64,000 bases of DNA from Escherichia coli (GTDB lineage Bacteria; Pseudomonadota; Gammaproteobacteria; Enterobacterales; Enterobacteriaceae). Location: the NCBI RefSeq assembly GCF_011045215.1, contig NZ_CP049201.1. One strand, given 5' to 3'. The notes under the pieces are model-generated. The model was not told where the DNA came from and did not search any database. It saw nothing but the letters and a program-made list of their open reading frames with translations. Below are positions 22,164 through 33,458 of the stretch, in pieces (the stretch's first letter is position 1; each line of letters starts with the position of its first letter). Made by a program: the position numbers and the translations under genes.

Positions 22164-22240
22164 GCGCCCTTAGCTCAGTTGGATAGAGCAACGACCTTCT
22201 AAGTCGTGGGCCGCAGGTTCGAATCCTGCAGGGCGCGCCA
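22164..22240 (+). tRNA. argU: tRNA-Arg (anticodon UCU)
   Basis: 77-nt cloverleaf GCGCCCTTAGCTCAGTTGGATAGAGCAACGACCTTCTAAGTCGTGGGCCGCAGGTTCGAATCCTGCAGGGCGCGCCA; anticodon loop CCTTCTAAG. Confidence 0.95.
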
Positions 22241-22255: not shown

Positions 22256-23419
22256 TTACGCCTTCTTTATATCCTCCATAATTCCACAGTGGGACATATT
22301 TGGGACATTATCACCAAAAATGTCGTCTATTTTCCTTGCATGCTCTGTCAAATGATTAGGCGCAAGGTGAGCATACCTACGAACCATTTCTATGGACTCC
22401 CATCCGCCCATTTCCTGAAGCACAGATAATGGGACGCCTGACTGGATCAGCCAGCTTGCCCAGGTGTGTCTGAGGTCATGGAAACGGAAATCTTCAATTC
22501 CTGCACGACGACAAGCTGATAGCCATGATGTCTTGCTGTCGATGCGCATCTTCCTGACCGCAGGCGTTGATGTTCCATCTGCTCGCTTAGCCGCCTTGGT
22601 ATGTACAAACACCCATTTGTGATGCTTGCCTATTTGATCACGCAACACTTTACAGGCGGTATCGTTCAGCGCCACACCAATGGCGCGGTTTGATTTGCTC
22701 TCTTCTGGATTCACCCAGGCAACTCGTCGCTGCATGTCGATTTGTTGCCATTCCAGATTTATGATGTTCGACTTTCTCAGACCAGTTGCCAGCGCAAACT
22801 TGACGACAGATTTCAGTGGTTCGGGGCACTCATCAATAAGGCGTTTTGCTTCCTCCTTTTCCAGCCATCTGACTCGCTTGTTTCTGACCGCTGGTATCTT
22901 GATGACAGGCGCTTTTTCCAGCCACTTCCAGTCGCGTTCTGCAGCACGGAGAATGGCCTTTATCATGGCAAGATGCTTTGCCTTTGTCTGAGTTGATACT
23001 GGCTTTGGTTCATAAACAGGCGGTTCTTTACCTTTCCTGATGGCGGCCTGAACTTTCTGTTTCCATATTTCTTTCGTCTTTCTGTTATGCATTCTGCTTA
23101 CAGCAGAGTAAATCTTTGCCTCCGAGATATCTTTAAGCCTTATACCCTCAAAATGTTCAAGCCAGAACTCAATCCGGCTTTTATCTGAATCGAGAGATTT
23201 TTTATCAGCTTTTTCCTCAAGCCATCTTAGGCAGGCCTCTTCAAAAGTGACATCAGGTAAATCCCCTAGCTTTTCTACTCGCCAGAGTTCTGCTTTTCGC
23301 TTGTCGTGCAACTCCTGAGCTTGCCGCTTGTCCTTTGTGCCAAGAGATTCCTTAATTCGTTTCCCGCCCGGGAGCGAATACGAGGCATACCATATTTCAT
23401 TTCTGCGGAAGAGTGACAT
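22256..23419 (-). CDS. intD: prophage tyrosine integrase
   Basis: 387 aa; C-terminal R..HxxR..Y catalytic region (HDLRHTWAS ... RRYAHL); adjacent to argU. Confidence 0.9.
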
Positions 23420-23645
23420 TTTCTTTCCTCTGTTATGCCATCACCCGCGCTCACCTGGACAGTATGCAGCGGAGACTGAAGCGCCGCAATGCAAGCTTGC
23501 CGTGTTGTGAGGTAAGGAGATTTTGGCTTGGTTGGATCTTTACGTGTTGCCTGTAGGCGGCCTGTTCGTATCCAGTTGGTGGCGGTTGGTCTGGATATAT
23601 TAAGAAACTGACAGGCCTCATCGAGTGTGAGGCTGTATGGCTCCA

Positions 23646-23646
<1 letters not shown>
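23275..23646 (-). CDS. excisionase/AlpA-like HTH protein (start chosen at [10 protein letters not shown]...)
   Basis: HTH motif [26 protein letters not shown]; directly upstream of and overlapping int; 3' extent uncertain. Confidence 0.5.
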
Positions 23647-26262
<2,616 letters not shown>

Positions 26263-26272
<10 letters not shown>

Positions 26273-26811
26273 TTGCGTAACTCCGATAAATCGTTAAAAC
26301 GTTCCATAAACATCCCGTAGGCATGACCCGGTGCCAGTGGAATCACGTTGAACATCTCTGTTGCCGGGATGCCTTCCAGTACAGGCCAGAAAGAGCCATC
26401 ATCAAGCCCGAGATCGCGGCGTTCGGTTGCCAGCATGATGAGATCGGCATATTTCACGGGTGTACTCATAACTGGGGGTAACCCGTATTTCTCACGGATT
26501 ACGGCGTCTATTTTTTCTTCCATCCGTTTATAGTCAGGAAGAAGGCGTTTCAGTGGTGCGGGAATGTCCTGGCAATACGCTTCTGTTGCATCATGCATTA
26601 ACGCTTCAAAAGCAAATTCCTGCGGCACCAGCTGGCTGCAAAGAACCGCATGTTGGGCGACGCTGTAGAAGTGCGAAAGATGACCGGCAAAGCGACAGAT
26701 ATTTGAAAGGGAAACCGCGATATCGTTAATATCGATGTCGTCTTTATTTATCTTGTCATAATAAAAATGCTTCCCGGAAAAAGTTTTAATAAATGACATT
26801 TTGTTCTCCAC
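26263..26811 (-). CDS. HD-domain phosphohydrolase, YfdR/YfbR-like
   Basis: 182 aa; H..HD metal-binding pattern (HAVLCSQ, HDATEAY). Confidence 0.7.
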
Positions 26812-26926
26812 GTATATGCACTACACCGCGCTGAATTCTGGTAAAAGGAAGCCCTCACCATCCGGTGATTATTGAGTTAATTACGTTTCCATAAATGCCC
26901 CCGCAGGGGCATTTGCAGTAATGAAA

Positions 26927-27751
26927 TCAGGCGGTGAAAGTACCAATAAAGGTTTCTACTTTGCTGTCTTTGAATTTCTCAACAAGCAGATCACGAAATT
27001 CGTTAGCCATTTCTTCCTGCACCGCTTCCAGCTGAATAATGCGCAGAACCAGTACAGGACGATCGCCAGTGATAATGCTGAGGCGTAATTTAAACGGACG
27101 TTCTTTCAGACCTTCAAACGGAACGCATTTAAATTCAAATGCCACTGGCATAATGTCTTTGGTCTTCGCTTCGACAGACTCCATCAGGGAGCGTTTGCCG
27201 CTGAAGTCATTATCTTCAAAATCAGCGGTCTGGTTTGCTTCAATCGTGATTTTACGGACTGCCGCAGCCGCTTTTGTTGCTTGAATGGCGTCACCATTAG
27301 CATCAAAGCCCACAAGGTAGTCGGCCCAGTCTTCGATCCATTCTGCCAGTGACTTCTGGGAGTTACGCTCGCCGTTAACAGACAACAGAGTAGAGAACGG
27401 TGCTGTCTTTTTCAGTTTGAGAGTGGCAGTGTTATCTGCGTGACCTGGCTCATCAATAGTACCCAGGTTAAGCACACTGACGGCACGCATATTATCGGCA
27501 TCGATAAAGCAGCGGGTGCCTTCATCTGCAAGATCTTTAGAATAACGGGTAAAATCATCGATGCTGGCAGTGGAAAGTGCACCACGGAAACGGAAGCGAT
27601 TTAAATTAAATTTTTCCAGATCATGAATGCGGAAATTCTCAGGCAATGCCACAGCATCGGCACCAATCTTACTGATAATTTCATTAACACCCTGAGCAGA
27701 AATAAGGGCATGGATTTGATTAATTGCGGTTGCGTCTAAGTTCTGAGACAT
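26927..27751 (-). CDS. phage protein of unknown function, YfdQ-like (DUF2303-type)
   Basis: 274-aa ORF; assignment from remembered similarity to CPS-53 yfdQ. Confidence 0.6.
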
Positions 27752-27816
27752 AATAAGTCCTCACTATATAAAGATATTCAGTGATGAGATAAATAATCAG
27801 TTTATTACGAACGATA

Positions 27817-28179
27817 TTAACGACCTGCTGCGCGGAGTTTTCCGTCAGGTTCACCGGCAAGAGTCAGTAATTGTCCCTGGTCTTCCTGCAGAATAGTCAG
27901 GCGACCACCGCGATTGACATACATCGGCGTTTCGGTGGTGTCTTCTTCGGAAATTTTCCCGCGGTTAGTTGGGCGAACATATGAGAGTTTGTGTTTGATT
28001 TTCACACGGTTCTCATCAAACGGTTCGATTTCCAGATTGAGTGAGACCTTCCCTTTGGTTTTCGTGTTCATCACACCGGAAGCGACCTCACTGAGAACTG
28101 CGCCGATTTTGGTTTCAAATACGCCGCCGTCCAGCTCCCCGATAAATGCCTGCACATCAGTACTGCGTTCGCTAGCCAT
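27817..28179 (-). CDS. phage protein of unknown function, YfdP-like (120 aa)
   Basis: start at MASERS... preceded by AGGAG; the longer ORF upstream looks like non-coding extension. Confidence 0.55.
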   Translation of the reverse strand: MASERSTDVQAFIGELDGGVFETKIGAVLSEVASGVMNTKTKGKVSLNLEIEPFDENRVKIKHKLSYVRPTNRGKISEEDTTETPMYVNRGGRLTILQEDQGQLLTLAGEPDGKLRAAGR

Positions 28180-28649: not shown

Positions 28650-29165
28650 GTGATCGCTGAATTAACGGCAGCAATGACGGCTATTCGTGAAACAGCCCAG
28701 ATTGCAAAACTAATGAACGAGGCAAAAACTCAAGCTGAAGTAAATGCGGCTATTGGTGAGCTAAACTCAAAGCTTGCGTCTATTCAGCGCGAATGCGTGT
28801 CTCTCGTTGAACTGGTGGGCTCTTATCAAGAAATAAATGCTTCTCTCAAAGCTAAAATTGCAGAATTCGAAAACTTTGAGGCTCAGACGGAAGGCTATAT
28901 CCTTAACCAACTTGAGTCGGGTACTTTTGTATACTCGAAGGAGGTAATCGTGAACGGTGGCAGCATAACCATGCATCTTTGCCCAAAATGTTTTGGACAA
29001 AAGATAGTATCGATACTTCAACCATTCCCGGTTAGCGAAGATGAGCTTTTTCATAAAAGCAGGTGCCTCCACTGTGAAAATAAGTTTCTGATGAATAAAA
29101 ATCCGGATTACGTATCGCCTCCATCCATTGAGGAGTTGTCCAGAAAACTTAACGGCAATCTGTAG
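28650..29165 (+). CDS. orphan coiled-coil / zinc-ribbon protein (about 165-171 aa), function unknown
   Basis: GTG 28650 (AAGAG upstream) or ATG 28674; coiled-coil-like N-terminal half; CPKC...(18)...CLHC motif; own terminator; between early-left operon and cI. Confidence 0.55.
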   Translation: MIAELTAAMTAIRETAQIAKLMNEAKTQAEVNAAIGELNSKLASIQRECVSLVELVGSYQEINASLKAKIAEFENFEAQTEGYILNQLESGTFVYSKEVIVNGGSITMHLCPKCFGQKIVSILQPFPVSEDELFHKSRCLHCENKFLMNKNPDYVSPPSIEELSRKLNGNL

Positions 29166-29204
29166 ATTACTACTGTTGTGGATATCCAGATTGTTAAAGA
29201 GCTA

Positions 29205-29229
29205 AGCGTCCTGTAGGGCGCTTTTTTGT
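29205..29229 (+). terminator. rho-independent terminator of the zinc-ribbon gene
   Basis: hairpin AGCGTCCTGTAGGGCGCT followed by TTTTTTG. Confidence 0.6.
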
Positions 29230-29393: not shown

Positions 29394-29430
29394 TTGCGAG
29401 ATATGCAAGTAATGTTTGCGAAATATGCAA
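29394..29430. promoter_or_regulatory. two 15-bp operator-like palindromes (TTGCGAGATATGCAA, TTGCGAAATATGCAA)
   Basis: same TTGCG-N5-GCAA family as sites between cI and cro. Confidence 0.4.
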
Positions 29431-29440
29431 ATTTATAGGT

Positions 29441-29464
29441 AATAAAAAGCCACCTTTCGGTGGC
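29441..29464 (-). terminator. rho-independent terminator downstream of cI
   Basis: hairpin GCCACCGAAAGGTGGC followed by TTTTTATT on the minus strand. Confidence 0.55.
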
Positions 29465-29484
29465 CGATGGATGGGATATTGAGG

Positions 29485-30177
29485 TTAATTATGTCTCTTA
29501 AGGGTTTGCGACTGACTGATTAAGACCTTTCCAAAGACCATGAATCGGTGTTCGTTTTCGCTAGTAATTCCCCATTCACGGTAAATCTGGTTATCAGAAA
29601 TCACCAGCAGTTTGTCAGGAATCATTTGAAGTCTTTTAACGTATATTTTGTCATCAAAACCAAAGACATATATACCATCACCATCAAACTGATTGATGCT
29701 GACATCAACGAAGATGAGATCTCCTGGCTCAATGGTTGGACACATACTGTCCCCACGAACGTTGATAACTTTGATGTGATTGGCTGGTCGTCCGCCGAAC
29801 ATTGATACAGCATTATCAGTTCTGTATTCGATGGCATGAATCACATCAATGACATCACCGCCCTGGATAAGGCCATTTCCCGCACTGGCACTGATATCCA
29901 GCATTTCAATACGGAACACATCCTTCACCTGCGCAACATCCTCATTATTACTGTTTTTATATACAGTATTACTTTTGTGGGCAGAGGTAAAGAGATCAGC
30001 AATATCAACACCTAAGCTCTTGGCAATATTACTCAGTGTTTGTTCGGTAAATTGTTTTTGCTTACCCGTTTCTAAGCGCGAGATGTTCGCCGCATCTACT
30101 CCTATTGCTTCAGCGAGATCGGCGATTTTCATGTTCTTCGCTTGGCGAAGTTGTCTGACTCGGTTTCCTATGTTCAT
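29485..30177 (-). CDS. phage CI-type repressor (XRE HTH plus S24 LexA-like peptidase domain)
   Basis: 230 aa; N-terminal HTH; C-terminal region with GDSM and a conserved Lys typical of S24 autopeptidases; divergent from cro. Confidence 0.8.
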   Translation of the reverse strand: MNIGNRVRQLRQAKNMKIADLAEAIGVDAANISRLETGKQKQFTEQTLSNIAKSLGVDIADLFTSAHKSNTVYKNSNNEDVAQVKDVFRIEMLDISASAGNGLIQGGDVIDVIHAIEYRTDNAVSMFGGRPANHIKVINVRGDSMCPTIEPGDLIFVDVSINQFDGDGIYVFGFDDKIYVKRLQMIPDKLLVISDNQIYREWGITSENEHRFMVFGKVLISQSQTLKRHN

Positions 30178-30197: not shown

Positions 30198-30260
30198 TTG
30201 CGTGATAAGCAAATCAACTTGCGCAAAATAATTGCGTGAAATAACATGCATAACGCGCAA
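30198..30260. promoter_or_regulatory. OR-like operator/promoter region between cI and cro
   Basis: TTGCGTGATAAGCAA (30198-30212), TTGCGCAA, and reverse-complement site ATGCATAACGCGCAA (30246-30260) in the 97-bp divergent intergenic region. Confidence 0.5.
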
Positions 30261-31079: not shown

Positions 31080-31434
31080 ACAGTTTAACAACACACTACC
31101 GTCGCTCGCAACTGATTGCGCTTCCTGTACCGGGTGGAAAAGCGAAGGTGGAGTATTGCTATGCAGTAAATGTACCAGGTGACAGGGAAATTGTAACCCA
31201 CAGCTTTGCAGAGTGGGCTGTGGGTGATTTCAACCGGCAGAAGGAGACAGTCCTTTGCGACAAGTTAACCGCTGGTTCAAAGATCACTACGGAGTGCCCG
31301 TCAGAGTCATTCGTTGGGAGCCGGAAACACAACGTGTTATCTACCTCCGCGAAGGCTATGAGCATGAGTGCTTCAGCCCGCTCGAACAGTTTCGTCGTAA
31401 ATTCAGGGAAATAGAGGTCGGTCATGAGCACTAA
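31076..31434 (+). pseudogene. phage gene with apparent frameshift
   Basis: protein-like translation switches between two reading frames near 31230-31260; 3' part ends overlapping the next start. Confidence 0.35.
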
Positions 31435-31787
31435 ATTAACCGGCTATGTATGGGATGGTTGCGCTGCATCAGGCATGAAATTATCCAGCGTGGCAATTAT
31501 GGCCCGCCTGGCTGATTTCAGTAATGACGAAGGTGTGTGCTGGCCATCAATTGAAACCATTGCCCGCCAGATTGGCGCGGGGATGAGTACCGTCAGAACG
31601 GCTATCGCACGGCTGGAAGCAGAAGGCTGGTTAACGCGTAAGGCGCGTCGCCAGGGTACCGTCGTGCCGCAACCGTGTGGATGGCGGCATTCCGTGAAAG
31701 CCACTCCCAGCCAGAACGAAACAATTTTCTGGCGCGTCGTGAGCGGTGCTTACGGAAAAGCAGCAAGCGCGCTGCATCGGGTGAAGA
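31424..31787 (+). pseudogene. replication-associated HTH protein, probable remnant
   Basis: N-terminal ~90 aa resemble phage replication-initiator HTH domains; rest of the ORF to 32089 is low-complexity Gly/Arg-rich and overlaps the next gene in another frame. Confidence 0.3.
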
Positions 31788-32147
31788 GTGGTATCTGTCA
31801 GGGAATTACGTGGGGGCTTAATGACGACGTTAACTCAATGCCAGCAGCAGGTGCTGGATATGCTGATTTCTTACCAGAAAGAACGTGGCTTCCCGCCAAC
31901 CAATCAGGAGGTGGCTACCATGCTGGGATACCGTTCAGTGAATGCAGCGGTGGAGCATCTTCGCGCACTGGAGAAAAAAGGCGTCATCACGATAAAGCGT
32001 GGCGTGGCCCGGGGCATCACGCTTCATACCGCGGTGAAGGACGACGACAGCGAGGTGGCCGGGATTATCCGCGCACTGCTTGCTGGTGAGGAAAACGCCA
32101 GGCTGCGTGCAGCCCACTGGTTACATGAGAGGGGGCTGAAAGTATGA
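31788..32147 (+). CDS. winged-helix DNA-binding protein (LexA N-terminal-like)
   Basis: GTG 31788 or ATG 31821; stop coupled to rusA start. Confidence 0.45.
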   Translation: MVSVRELRGGLMTTLTQCQQQVLDMLISYQKERGFPPTNQEVATMLGYRSVNAAVEHLRALEKKGVITIKRGVARGITLHTAVKDDDSEVAGIIRALLAGEENARLRAAHWLHERGLKV

Positions 32148-32521
32148 AGCTGATTCTGCCTTTTCCACCCAGCGTGAACACCTACTGGCGACACCCCAAC
32201 AAAGGGGCATTTGCTGGTAAGAGCCTGATAAGCGCGGCGGGGCGAAAATTCCAGAGTGCGGCGTGCACAGCAATAGTTGAGCAGTTACGTCGTCTGCCGA
32301 AACCAACGTCGGCACCTGCTTCAGTGGAGATCGTGTTGTTTCCTCCGGATAACCGGATCCGCGATCTGGACAACTATAACAAGGCGCTGTTTGACGCCCT
32401 GACCCACGCGGGTGTGTGGGAAGACGACAGCCAGGTGAAAAGAATGCTGGTGGAGTGGGGACCGGTTATCCCGGAAACGGATGTTGCGGGTTGTTGTTCT
32501 GCGGGTTCTGTTCTTCGTTGA
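32144..32521 (+). CDS. rusA: RusA-family Holliday-junction resolvase
   Basis: 125 aa; conserved RDLDN...ALFDALT...DD motifs; C-terminal tail atypical. Confidence 0.65.
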   Translation: MKLILPFPPSVNTYWRHPNKGAFAGKSLISAAGRKFQSAACTAIVEQLRRLPKPTSAPASVEIVLFPPDNRIRDLDNYNKALFDALTHAGVWEDDSQVKRMLVEWGPVIPETDVAGCCSAGSVLR

Positions 32522-32912: not shown

Positions 32913-33458
32913 ATGGAAGTCAACAAAAAGCAGCTGGCTGACATTTTCGGTGCGAGTATCCGTACCATTCAGAACTGGCAGGAACAGGGAATGCCCGTTC
33001 TGCGAGGCGGTGGCAAGGGTAATGAGGTGCTTTATGACTCTGCCGCCGTCATAAAATGGTATGCCGAAAGGGATGCTGAAATTGAGAACGAAAAGCTGCG
33101 CCGGGAGGTTGAAGAACTGCGGCAGGCCAGCGAGACAGATCTCCAGCCAGGGACTATTGAGTACGAACGCCATCGACTTACGCGTGCGCAGGCCGACGCA
33201 CAGGAGCTGAAAAATGCCAGAGACTCCGCTGAAGTGGTGGAAACCGCATTCTGTACTTTCGTGCTGTCGCGGATCGCAGGTGAAATTGCCAGTATTCTCG
33301 ACGGGATCCCCCTGTCGGTGCAGCGGCGTTTTCCGGAACTGGAAAACCGACATGTTGATTTCCTGAAACGGGATATCATCAAAGCCATGAACAAAGCAGC
33401 CGCGCTGGATGAACTGATACCGGGGTTGCTGAGTGAATATATCGAACAGTCAGGTTAA
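32913..33458 (+). CDS. nohD: terminase small subunit Nu1 homologue
   Basis: 181 aa, near-identical to remembered lambda Nu1 (MEVNKKQLADIFGASIRTIQNWQEQGMPV...). Confidence 0.9.
   Translation: MEVNKKQLADIFGASIRTIQNWQEQGMPVLRGGGKGNEVLYDSAAVIKWYAERDAEIENEKLRREVEELRQASETDLQPGTIEYERHRLTRAQADAQELKNARDSAEVVETAFCTFVLSRIAGEIASILDGIPLSVQRRFPELENRHVDFLKRDIIKAMNKAAALDELIPGLLSEYIEQSG

What the first reader, a model, noticed from the sequence alone, without database searches (positions are those of the whole stretch)
26263..28179. HD-phosphohydrolase plus two unknown-function proteins as an early-left module
An HD-domain (YfbR-type) hydrolase is co-transcribed with two proteins of unknown function directly upstream of xis-int. 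Phage-encoded nucleotide hydrolases can manipulate nucleotide pools or signalling nucleotides, which is compatible with an anti-defence or recombination-accessory role; the function of this trio is to my knowledge not established.
Basis: inference. Interest (0 to 1): 0.45.

Follow-up and report, generated by a model that had tools for sequence, protein, structure and literature searches.

The report
Known prophage genes yfdP, yfdQ, yfdR
These three genes are near-identical copies of the already named E. coli prophage genes yfdP, yfdQ and yfdR; YfdR is a published nucleotidase that binds the host replication initiator DnaA, so the finding is mostly ordinary, although what the widely conserved YfdP-YfdQ pair does biochemically is still unknown.

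Summary
The three minus-strand ORFs are real. They are 98-99% identical to E. coli K-12 CPS-53 YfdP, YfdQ and YfdR, and about 2450 of 5426 complete E. coli genomes carry this DNA.

YfdR is not uncharacterised. It is annotated as a 5'-deoxynucleotidase. A 2016 paper showed that it binds DnaA domain I, and that yfdQ + yfdR + (yfdS or yfdT) inhibit oriC initiation when overexpressed.

The trio is not directly upstream of xis-int. yfdS, split here by a 1954-bp IS100-family element, and yfdT lie between.

New here:
- The trio is not one unit. YfdP sits immediately upstream of YfdQ in 19 of 19 loci inspected, from Escherichia, Salmonella, Vibrio, Thalassomonas, Xanthomonas, Pseudomonas and Acinetobacter phages.
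- The pair usually lies inside recombination or replication modules (ERF/RecT, YqaJ exonuclease, SSB).
- A YfdR-like HD gene accompanies the pair in only three lineages.
- Confident AlphaFold models of YfdP and YfdQ have no significant fold relatives. One unpublished homologue structure exists (PDB 9o7m, 36 chains).

There is no homology to known recombinases and no evidence for anti-defence. Verdict: already known genes, low-moderate interest. The residual open question is the YfdP-YfdQ pair.

The parts
27817..28179 (-). yfdP homologue (120 aa). The model has an N-terminal helix, a three-stranded sheet and a disordered C-terminal tail carrying a conserved QEDQGQL[FL] motif.
   Evidence: ORF. 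118/120 identical to K-12 YfdP. phrog_204 E 1e-49. The near-identical cluster carries Pfam PF27127 'YfdP'. AF2 pLDDT 85. Tail motif.
26927..27751 (-). yfdQ homologue (274 aa, DUF2303). Acidic protein with a fold that has no significant relatives.
26263..26799 (-). yfdR homologue (178 aa). HD-domain 5'-deoxynucleotidase and DnaA-binding protein.
   Evidence: 177/178 identical to K-12 YfdR. phrog_318 E 3e-111. PDB 2gz4 E 4e-14 with the H...HD...D motif conserved. Function from PMC4776307.
26049..26272 (-). N-terminal fragment of yfdS (codons 1-75), cut by the IS.
   Evidence: Translation matches the first 75 residues of YfdS, then diverges. Alignment to the uninterrupted locus L001.
24095..26048 (+). 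IS21-family (IS100-type) insertion sequence, 1954 bp: istA 24181-25203, istB 25200-25982. Ends are TGTCA...TGACA, with a 5-bp target duplication ATCAG.
   Evidence: ORFs. Breakpoints against L001. RefSeq names the element 'IS21-like element IS100 family'.
23951..24094 (-). C-terminal fragment of yfdS.
23646..23951 (-). yfdT homologue (101 aa), intact.
   Evidence: 98/101 identical to K-12 YfdT.
23275..23646 (-). xis-like HTH_17 ORF. It overlaps the integrase start by about 145 nt, so it is possibly altered.
   Evidence: Pfam HTH_17 E 8e-9. ORF list. The counterpart in L001 is annotated as incomplete.
22256..23419 (-). Tyrosine integrase (387 aa) next to a tRNA gene at 22164-22237; the syntenic tRNA in relative L001 is annotated tRNA-Arg.
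   Evidence: Pfam Phage_integrase E 6e-47. tRNA. Synteny with L001: tRNA-Arg then intD.
29394..29430 (.). Two copies of a 15-bp palindromic operator (TTGCGAGATATGCAA / TTGCGAAATATGCAA). This is the likely OL/PL region controlling leftward transcription toward yfdP.
   Evidence: Repeat family D1, with a third copy at 30198-30212 between cI and cro. Sequence read. The promoter itself is not verified.
29485..30177 (-). cI-like repressor (230 aa), followed by a terminator at 29448-29465.
   Evidence: ORF. Terminator. HTH hits.
28650..29165 (+). Opposite-strand gene between the operators and yfdP (171 aa, phrog_1244). It has its own terminator at 29204-29223 and is not part of the operon.
   Evidence: Same layout in phage cdtI.

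Best explanation
This segment is the yfdP-yfdQ-yfdR part of the early-left operon of a CPS-53/SfV/cdtI-type lambdoid prophage. Here the prophage is a defective one next to a tRNA gene, at the tRNA-Arg/intD (DLP12) site by synteny with relative L001.

Gene order, transcribed leftward from a repressor-controlled region: yfdP, yfdQ, yfdR, yfdS (split by an IS100-type element), yfdT, xis, int.

Shown by others, and transferred here by 98-99% identity:
- YfdR is an HD-domain 5'-deoxynucleotidase with weak nucleotide affinity.
- YfdR binds DnaA domain I at Phe46 and moderately inhibits DiaA and DnaB binding to DnaA.
- YfdQ + YfdR + (YfdS or YfdT), when overproduced, block initiation at oriC. YfdP is not needed for this.

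The most likely role is therefore an early host-replication takeover function, analogous in outcome to lambda P acting on DnaA and DnaB.

Shown here: YfdP-YfdQ is a separate, near-obligate gene pair. It is conserved in phages of at least seven genera, usually lies inside recombination or replication modules, and has no significant fold relatives. The HD gene is an optional add-on.

Inferred: the pair acts on DNA-replication or recombination intermediates, or on host replisome proteins, with YfdQ working as a large homo-oligomer. In this window yfdQ, yfdR and yfdT are intact, but the IS probably uncouples yfdT, xis and int from the upstream promoter.
For: - Identity to K-12 YfdP/Q/R/T of 98-99% and RefSeq annotation in 2450 genomes.
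- Published biochemistry and genetics (PMC4776307).
- HD residues intact.
- Operator pair upstream, and the same operon layout in the phage cdtI genome.
- P immediately upstream of Q in 19/19 loci.
- Almost identical phage distributions for P (180 records) and Q (184 records), against a different one for the HD protein (333 records: Bacillus, Caulobacter, Rhizobium and others).
- Neighbours of the pair: ERF, YqaJ, DnaQ-like exonuclease and SSB. Gam, RecT, exonuclease and SSB. DUF2800, DUF2815 and PolA. ERF and YqaJ. RecT and YqaJ in phage JC1 (PMC9144972).
- A YfdR-like HD lies near the pair in Salmonella ST64B and Pseudomonas pAN.
- PDB 9o7m has 36 YfdQ chains in one entry.
Against: - The replication-inhibition phenotype needs multicopy expression, deleting yfdQRST has no phenotype, and the authors admit it could be an overexpression artefact.
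- YfdQ, YfdS and YfdT did not bind DnaA or YfdR stably in pull-downs.
- No biochemical activity is known for YfdP or YfdQ, and neighbourhood association is only circumstantial.
- In E. coli lambdoid carriers such as cdtI, no recombinase is annotated in the early-left stretch inspected.
- The prophage here is defective and the operon is interrupted, so any current function in this genome is uncertain.
- The oligomeric state is inferred only from the chain count of an entry I could not read.
Confidence: 0.6

Rival explanations
1. YfdP-YfdQ is a recombination accessory, for example a mediator, a DNA-end-binding factor or a modulator of host nucleases. It would work alongside the phage annealing protein, exonuclease and SSB, independently of YfdR. 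In this reading the replication-inhibition phenotype is a side effect of overexpression.
For: - The pair lies inside SSAP/exonuclease/SSB modules in TL-2011c, Vibrio 44E38.2, Thalassomonas BA3, Xanthomonas Tabio, Acinetobacter 4316 and Burkholderia JC1.
- A DUF1351-like coiled-coil protein follows YfdQ in two lineages.
- yfdQ deletion is reported to sensitise cells to MMS and H2O2 (cited in PMC4776307).
- The JC1 DUF2303 protein is reported as virion-associated.
Against: - There is no fold or sequence similarity to Rad52/Red-beta/RecT/ERF, Gam or any nuclease.
- In cdtI, the one E. coli lambdoid carrier whose region was inspected, no recombinase is annotated near the pair.
- Gene neighbourhood alone cannot separate a recombination role from replication or anti-nuclease roles.
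Confidence: 0.3
2. The HD enzyme, with or without the two partners, is an anti-defence device that degrades immune signalling nucleotides (CBASS, Pycsar, Thoeris, type III CRISPR) or depletes nucleotide pools.
For: - HD-domain enzymes include cyclic-nucleotide phosphodiesterases (general knowledge).
- Early expression and a position among accessory genes fit such a role.
- A Tad2-like anti-Thoeris domain protein lies three genes from YfdQ in Vibrio phage 44E38.2.
- YfdR's weak affinity for dNMPs leaves room for another substrate.
Against: - The reported activity is dNMP hydrolysis, and the closest solved relatives are YfbR/Atu1052-type small HD proteins.
- The demonstrated partner is DnaA.
- Known phage signal-degrading enzymes (Acb1, Apyc1) have other folds (own knowledge, not tested).
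- No co-occurrence with defence systems was seen, and PADLOC gave no hit.
- YfdP-YfdQ occur mostly without any HD gene.
Confidence: 0.08
3. In this genome the genes are decaying cargo of a cryptic prophage with no present phage function. At most they give the host mild stress tolerance, as reported for CPS-53.
For: - The prophage is truncated and carries an IS in yfdS.
- Deleting yfdQRST in K-12 has no replication phenotype.
- CPS-53 deletion phenotypes are stress-related (cited).
Against: - All three ORFs are intact and 98-99% conserved across thousands of genomes and in phage genome records deposited as complete (cdtI, Stx2c phages, Kati, PhiR29_2).
- This says the genes are maintained by phage selection, even if this particular copy is stranded.
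Confidence: 0.25

Closest known systems
E. coli K-12 cryptic prophage CPS-53 (KplE1) yfdP-yfdQ-yfdR-yfdS-yfdT cluster (Noguchi & Katayama 2016, PMC4776307)
   Same: Same genes in the same order, 98-99% protein identity, followed by the excisionase.
   Different: It is integrated at a different site: a tRNA next to intD (the DLP12 site, by synteny with L001) rather than argW/intS. yfdS is split by an IS100-type element. An intact cI-cro region with operators is still present upstream here, whereas in K-12 yfdP is preceded by yfdO.
Phages cdtI, SfV/SfII/SfIV, Stx2c phages and Salmonella ST64B (early-left operons)
   Same: cI, then an opposite-strand gene, then yfdP, yfdQ, the HD gene, a yfdS-like gene, DUF551 and xis. 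These are phage genomes deposited as complete records, which shows the module is a normal phage early operon.
   Different: Those copies are uninterrupted.
E. coli YfbR (5'-deoxynucleotidase, HD domain) and Agrobacterium Atu1052 (PDB 2gz4)
   Same: HD fold and H...HD...D metal-binding motif. dNMP phosphatase activity is reported for YfdR.
   Different: YfdR scores below the YfbR family cut-offs, has much lower nucleotide affinity, and has an additional DnaA-binding function.
Lambda P protein and B. subtilis SirA (inhibitors of the initiator DnaA)
   Same: They work alike in outcome. A small accessory protein binds DnaA and prevents initiation at the host origin. SirA, like YfdR, depends on the Phe46-equivalent residue of domain I.
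   Different: No sequence or fold relationship. Lambda P binds DnaA domain III and is itself the helicase loader.
Phage T5 Dmp (deoxynucleoside-5'-monophosphatase)
   Same: A phage-encoded early dNMP phosphatase, so a functional analogue of the enzymatic activity.
   Different: Not homologous: BLASTP E 3.3, and it falls in a different PHROG (phrog_415).

Membership tests
HD-domain metal-dependent phosphohydrolase superfamily | Conserved H...HD...D metal-ligand motif | tested here: met
   H50, H69-D70 and D119 align with the motif of PDB 2gz4. The same residues are kept in Pseudomonas pAN_32.
YfbR family (Pfam PF12917 / NCBIfam NF003009, 5'-deoxynucleotidase equivalog) | Score at or above the curated family cut-off | tested here: not met
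   Pfam 24.2 bits against a cut-off of 25.9. NCBIfam 19.9 bits against a cut-off of 122. It is a distant relative, not a YfbR orthologue.
YfdR (CPS-53 5'-deoxynucleotidase / DnaA-binding protein) | Orthology to K-12 YfdR | tested here: met
   177/178 identical. Same gene neighbourhood.
YfdR (CPS-53 5'-deoxynucleotidase / DnaA-binding protein) | Binding to DnaA domain I (Phe46), and dNMP hydrolysis | not testable with these tools
   Known only from PMC4776307 and the work it cites.
DUF2303 / YfdQ family (Pfam PF10065) | Full-length match above the gathering score | tested here: met
   308.5 bits against 26.6, covering residues 7-272. 271/274 identical to K-12 YfdQ.
YfdP family (Pfam PF27127) | Family match and orthology to K-12 YfdP | tested here: met
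   118/120 identical to K-12 YfdP. The cluster representative P0121 (98% identical) carries PF27127, which is named YfdP. The local Pfam copy lacks this model.
yfdQRST replication-initiation inhibitory gene set | Presence of intact yfdQ, yfdR and at least one of yfdS or yfdT | tested here: met
   yfdQ, yfdR and yfdT are intact and yfdS is disrupted. However, yfdT is separated from yfdR by the IS, so co-expression is doubtful.
Phage single-strand annealing proteins and recombination proteins (Rad52/Red-beta/RecT/ERF, Gam) | Sequence or fold similarity of YfdP or YfdQ to a known member | tested here: not met
Anti-phage defence system components (PADLOC) | Match to any defence-protein model | tested here: not met
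   No hits for YfdP, Q, R, S or T.
Beta-clamp-binding proteins (considered for YfdP only) | Q-x-x-[LM]-[FL] type peptide in a disordered region, and actual binding to DnaN | tested here: inconclusive
   A conserved QEDQGQL[FL] lies in the low-confidence tail, and 37 of 42 family members match a loose pattern. Binding was not testable. The motif could equally dock on YfdQ.

The most novel reading that the evidence does not exclude
YfdP-YfdQ is an uncharacterised two-protein phage module. It keeps a fixed gene order, occurs across at least seven bacterial genera, has no significant fold relatives, and is embedded in recombination or replication modules. YfdQ would act as a large homo-oligomer. 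YfdP would carry a conserved disordered tail peptide that resembles a beta-clamp-binding motif. Together they would form a previously undescribed way for phages to engage or disable the host replisome or DNA-repair machinery, with the HD protein YfdR as an optional DnaA-targeting add-on.
Probability: 0.25. Interest if true: 0.6.

Novelty: already known. Interest (0 to 1): 0.25.

Why it matters
For this window it matters little. The genes are textbook K-12 y-genes, present in almost half of complete E. coli genomes, and the HD protein already has a published activity and partner.

The wider point may be useful. YfdP-YfdQ is among the larger phage protein families still without a function (phrog_204 and phrog_210; about 1450 clusters at 50% identity). 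It is strictly paired, and it sits among phage recombination and replication genes across distant hosts. Working out what the pair does could reveal a new early host-takeover or DNA-metabolism function. It could also explain why yfdQ is required for the DnaA-linked replication block.

Tried and rejected
- **T5 Dmp as a homologue of YfdR.** My recollection was wrong. There is no similarity and it falls in a different PHROG.
- **Finding the paper behind PDB 9o7m.** Full-text searches for the code and for YfdQ or DUF2303 found none. The entry is absent from both fold libraries. Its 36 chains are therefore only a hint of a large assembly.
- **Diverse loci from IMG/VR.** With the E. coli protein first, all 80 loci returned were near-identical copies. 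I used GenBank phages and metagenome contigs instead.
- **Zimmerman et al. 2008** (YfdR kinetics) is not held in the library.
- **Defence-system models:** no hits.
- **Rfam over 20-34 kb:** only the tRNA.
- **YfdP-YfdQ fusion proteins.** The database fusions (P0011, P0073, P0160) are 95-99% identical E. coli sequences and look like frameshift or deletion artefacts, so I did not use them as evidence of interaction.
Full report
**Observation.** Between 26263 and 28179 the minus strand carries three ORFs:
- 27817-28179, 120 aa
- 26927-27751, 274 aa
- 26263-26799, 178 aa, or 182 aa from an upstream GTG

They are not chance ORFs. Their products are 118/120, 271/274 and 177/178 identical to YfdP, YfdQ and YfdR of the E. 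coli K-12 cryptic prophage CPS-53. The DNA is present at >=80% coverage in 2450 of 5426 complete E. coli genomes, where RefSeq labels the genes yfdP, yfdQ and yfdR (5'-deoxynucleotidase).

Family matches are as follows. YfdQ is a full-length DUF2303 protein (Pfam E 5e-92). YfdR hits phrog_318, 'deoxyribonucleoside 5' monophosphate phosphatase' (E 3e-111), and YfdP hits phrog_204. Near-identical YfdP clusters carry the recent Pfam family PF27127, named YfdP.

**Context in the window.** The order on the minus strand is yfdP, yfdQ, yfdR, yfdS, yfdT, an xis-like HTH gene, then a tyrosine integrase next to a tRNA gene. An uninterrupted relative (L001) shows the same layout, tRNA-Arg then intD at the DLP12 attachment site.

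In the window yfdS is split after codon 75 by a 1954-bp IS21-family element at 24095-26048. It carries istA and istB, has ends TGTCA...TGACA, and has a 5-bp duplication ATCAG. RefSeq calls this type IS100 family. The junction occurs in none of the 5426 complete E. coli genomes. So the trio is not 'directly upstream of xis-int'.

Upstream, two copies of a 15-bp palindrome (29394-29408 and 29416-29430) match a third copy between the cI-like repressor and cro (30198-30212). This marks a repressor-controlled leftward promoter region just past the cI terminator. An opposite-strand gene with its own terminator (28650-29165) lies between these operators and yfdP. Phage cdtI has the same layout.

Gaps of 65 and 127 bp separate the three genes. 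The yfdR stop overlaps the yfdS start. No credible minus-strand terminator lies between them. 'Co-transcribed early-left module' is therefore reasonable, though not proven.

- The minimal set is yfdQ + yfdR + (yfdS or yfdT). yfdP is dispensable.
- YfdR binds DnaA directly, depends on DnaA Phe46 in domain I, and moderately inhibits DiaA and DnaB binding to DnaA.
- Extracts oversupplied with YfdQRST inhibit oriC replication in vitro.
- The authors state that YfdR is a structural homologue of the 5'-deoxynucleotidase YfbR with much lower nucleotide affinity, that deletion gives no replication phenotype, and that overexpression artefacts cannot be excluded.
- They cite reports that yfdQ deletion increases MMS and H2O2 sensitivity.

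The statement that the function is 'not established' is therefore outdated for YfdR and only partly true for YfdQ.

**The HD protein.** The H...HD...D motif is intact (H50, H69-D70, D119) in the alignment to PDB 2gz4, Atu1052, E 4e-14. YfdR is not a YfbR orthologue. It scores below the Pfam YfbR-like cut-off (24.2 against 25.9) and far below the NCBIfam equivalog cut-off (19.9 against 122). Phage T5 Dmp, which I recalled as a relative, is unrelated and is only a functional analogue.

**The trio is a pair plus an optional enzyme.**
- *Adjacency.* I inspected 19 loci, and all 19 have a YfdP homologue immediately upstream of the YfdQ homologue on the same strand, once with a 66-aa ORF between. 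The loci are the window, K-12, phage cdtI, Stx phage TL-2011c, Salmonella ST64B, four Vibrio phages, Thalassomonas BA3, Xanthomonas Tabio, Pseudomonas vB_PstS-pAN, two Acinetobacter phages and five metagenome contigs.
- *Distribution.* Across 50,697 phage records, YfdQ is found in 184 and YfdP in 180, with nearly identical taxon breakdowns. YfdR-like proteins occur in 333 records with a different distribution: Bacillus, Caulobacter, Rhizobium, Stenotrophomonas and others, with no Xanthomonas or Stx2a phages among the most frequent groups listed.
- *HD co-occurrence.* A YfdR-like HD gene lies near the pair only in the E. coli lambdoid group, in ST64B (Sb35, E 2e-80) and in Pseudomonas pAN (40% identity, three genes downstream).

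**Neighbourhood of the pair.**
- Vibrio 44E38.2: ERF, YqaJ exonuclease, DnaQ-like exonuclease, YfdP, YfdQ, SSB.
- Thalassomonas BA3: ERF and YqaJ upstream.
- Xanthomonas Tabio: YfdP, YfdQ, a DUF1351-like protein, then ERF, YqaJ and SSB.
- TL-2011c: Gam-like, RecT, exonuclease, SSB, YfdP, YfdQ.
- Acinetobacter 4316: DUF2800, DUF2815, YfdP, YfdQ, DNA polymerase I, beta clamp, VRR-NUC, DUF551, helicase.
- Vibrio vB_VpP_1: after a replication-initiator/DnaC-like pair and nucleases.
- Burkholderia phage JC1: the DUF2303 protein gp10 sits in the replication/repair module with RecT and YqaJ, and was unexpectedly detected in virions (PMC9144972).

The pair thus travels with recombination and replication genes, but alongside a separate annealing protein rather than instead of one. 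In cdtI no recombinase is annotated in the early-left stretch inspected.

**Structure.**
- *Solved relative.* By sequence, the only solved relative is PDB 9o7m, 'YfdQ Protein', with 36 chains in one entry. By eye, the alignment printed suggests its sequence is closest to the Xanthomonas-phage type. No YfdP homologue is in the PDB. I found no paper for 9o7m.
- *Other properties.* The YfdQ family is uniformly acidic, with a median pI of 5.1. The YfdP tail carries a strongly conserved QEDQGQL[FL] peptide in Enterobacterales. Its Q-x-x-L-F pattern resembles beta-clamp-binding motifs. This is a lead, not a result.

**Interpretation.**
- *Best supported.* This is a known early-left operon segment. 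Its HD protein targets DnaA and, with YfdQ and YfdS or YfdT, can shut down host initiation, which makes it a host-replication takeover function.
- *The YfdP-YfdQ pair.* It is an independent, widely conserved module of unknown biochemistry, most likely acting at the replication/recombination interface. A dedicated recombination-accessory role is a live alternative.
- *Anti-defence.* An anti-defence role for the HD enzyme has no support beyond plausibility.
- *This genome.* The prophage is defective and the IS probably cuts yfdT, xis and int off from the operon, so the copy may be functionally stranded.

**Verdict.** Novelty is 'already known'. Interest is low to moderate (0.25). The main residual value is the conserved, structurally unassigned YfdP-YfdQ pair.

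Noticed in passing
window 24095-26048 (junctions 24090-24094 and 26049-26053): An IS21-family (IS100-type) element of 1954 bp is inserted in yfdS with a 5-bp target duplication ATCAG. This exact junction is absent from all 5426 complete E. coli genomes searched, so the window may come from a Shigella or another IS-rich Escherichia lineage.
   Followed up: partly
window 28650-29165 (+), terminator 29204-29223: An opposite-strand gene (171 aa, phrog_1244) sits between the OL-like operators and yfdP. It has a predicted coiled coil and a C-terminal four-cysteine motif (CPKC...CLHC). Phage cdtI has the same arrangement. It looks like a lysogen-expressed 'moron' of unknown function and has no PADLOC hit.
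   Followed up: partly
window 29394-29408, 29416-29430, 30198-30212: Three copies of a 15-bp palindromic operator (TTGCGAGATATGCAA type) flank the cI-like repressor gene. Two lie to the left (OL) and one lies in the cI-cro intergenic region.
   Followed up: partly
window 23275-23646 (-): The xis-like HTH_17 ORF runs about 145 nt into the integrase gene and is longer than typical excisionases. The counterpart in relative L001 is annotated as incomplete, so xis may be damaged.
   Followed up: no
window 31424-32147 (+): A replication-protein-like ORF (31424-32089) has an odd, low-complexity C-terminal half, suggesting a frameshift. An overlapping 119-aa ORF (31788-32147) begins with what looks by eye like a LexA-type N-terminal DNA-binding domain (no domain search was run). 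A RusA-like ORF (32144-32521) is followed almost directly by a terminase small-subunit-like ORF (32913-33458). That implies large deletions of the late-regulation and lysis region.
   Followed up: no
L004 6712-7221 (Vibrio phage 44E38.2): A protein with a Tad2-like (Thoeris anti-defence 2) domain lies three genes downstream of YfdQ, next to SSB.
   Followed up: no
PDB 9o7m (no window coordinates): A solved structure of a YfdQ homologue with 36 chains in one entry exists. By eye, the alignment printed suggests its sequence is closest to Xanthomonas-phage YfdQ. It is absent from fold libraries dated to April 2026, and no paper was found.
   Followed up: partly
window 27817-27900 (YfdP residues ~95-120): The disordered C-terminal tail of YfdP carries a highly conserved QEDQGQL[FL] peptide in Enterobacterales. 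Its Q-x-x-L-F pattern resembles beta-clamp-binding motifs.
   Followed up: partly
L005 5905-7320; L007 4957-6090: A long coiled-coil DUF1351-like protein immediately follows YfdQ in Xanthomonas phage Tabio and Vibrio phage vB_VpP_1. It may be a third, facultative partner of the pair.
   Followed up: partly
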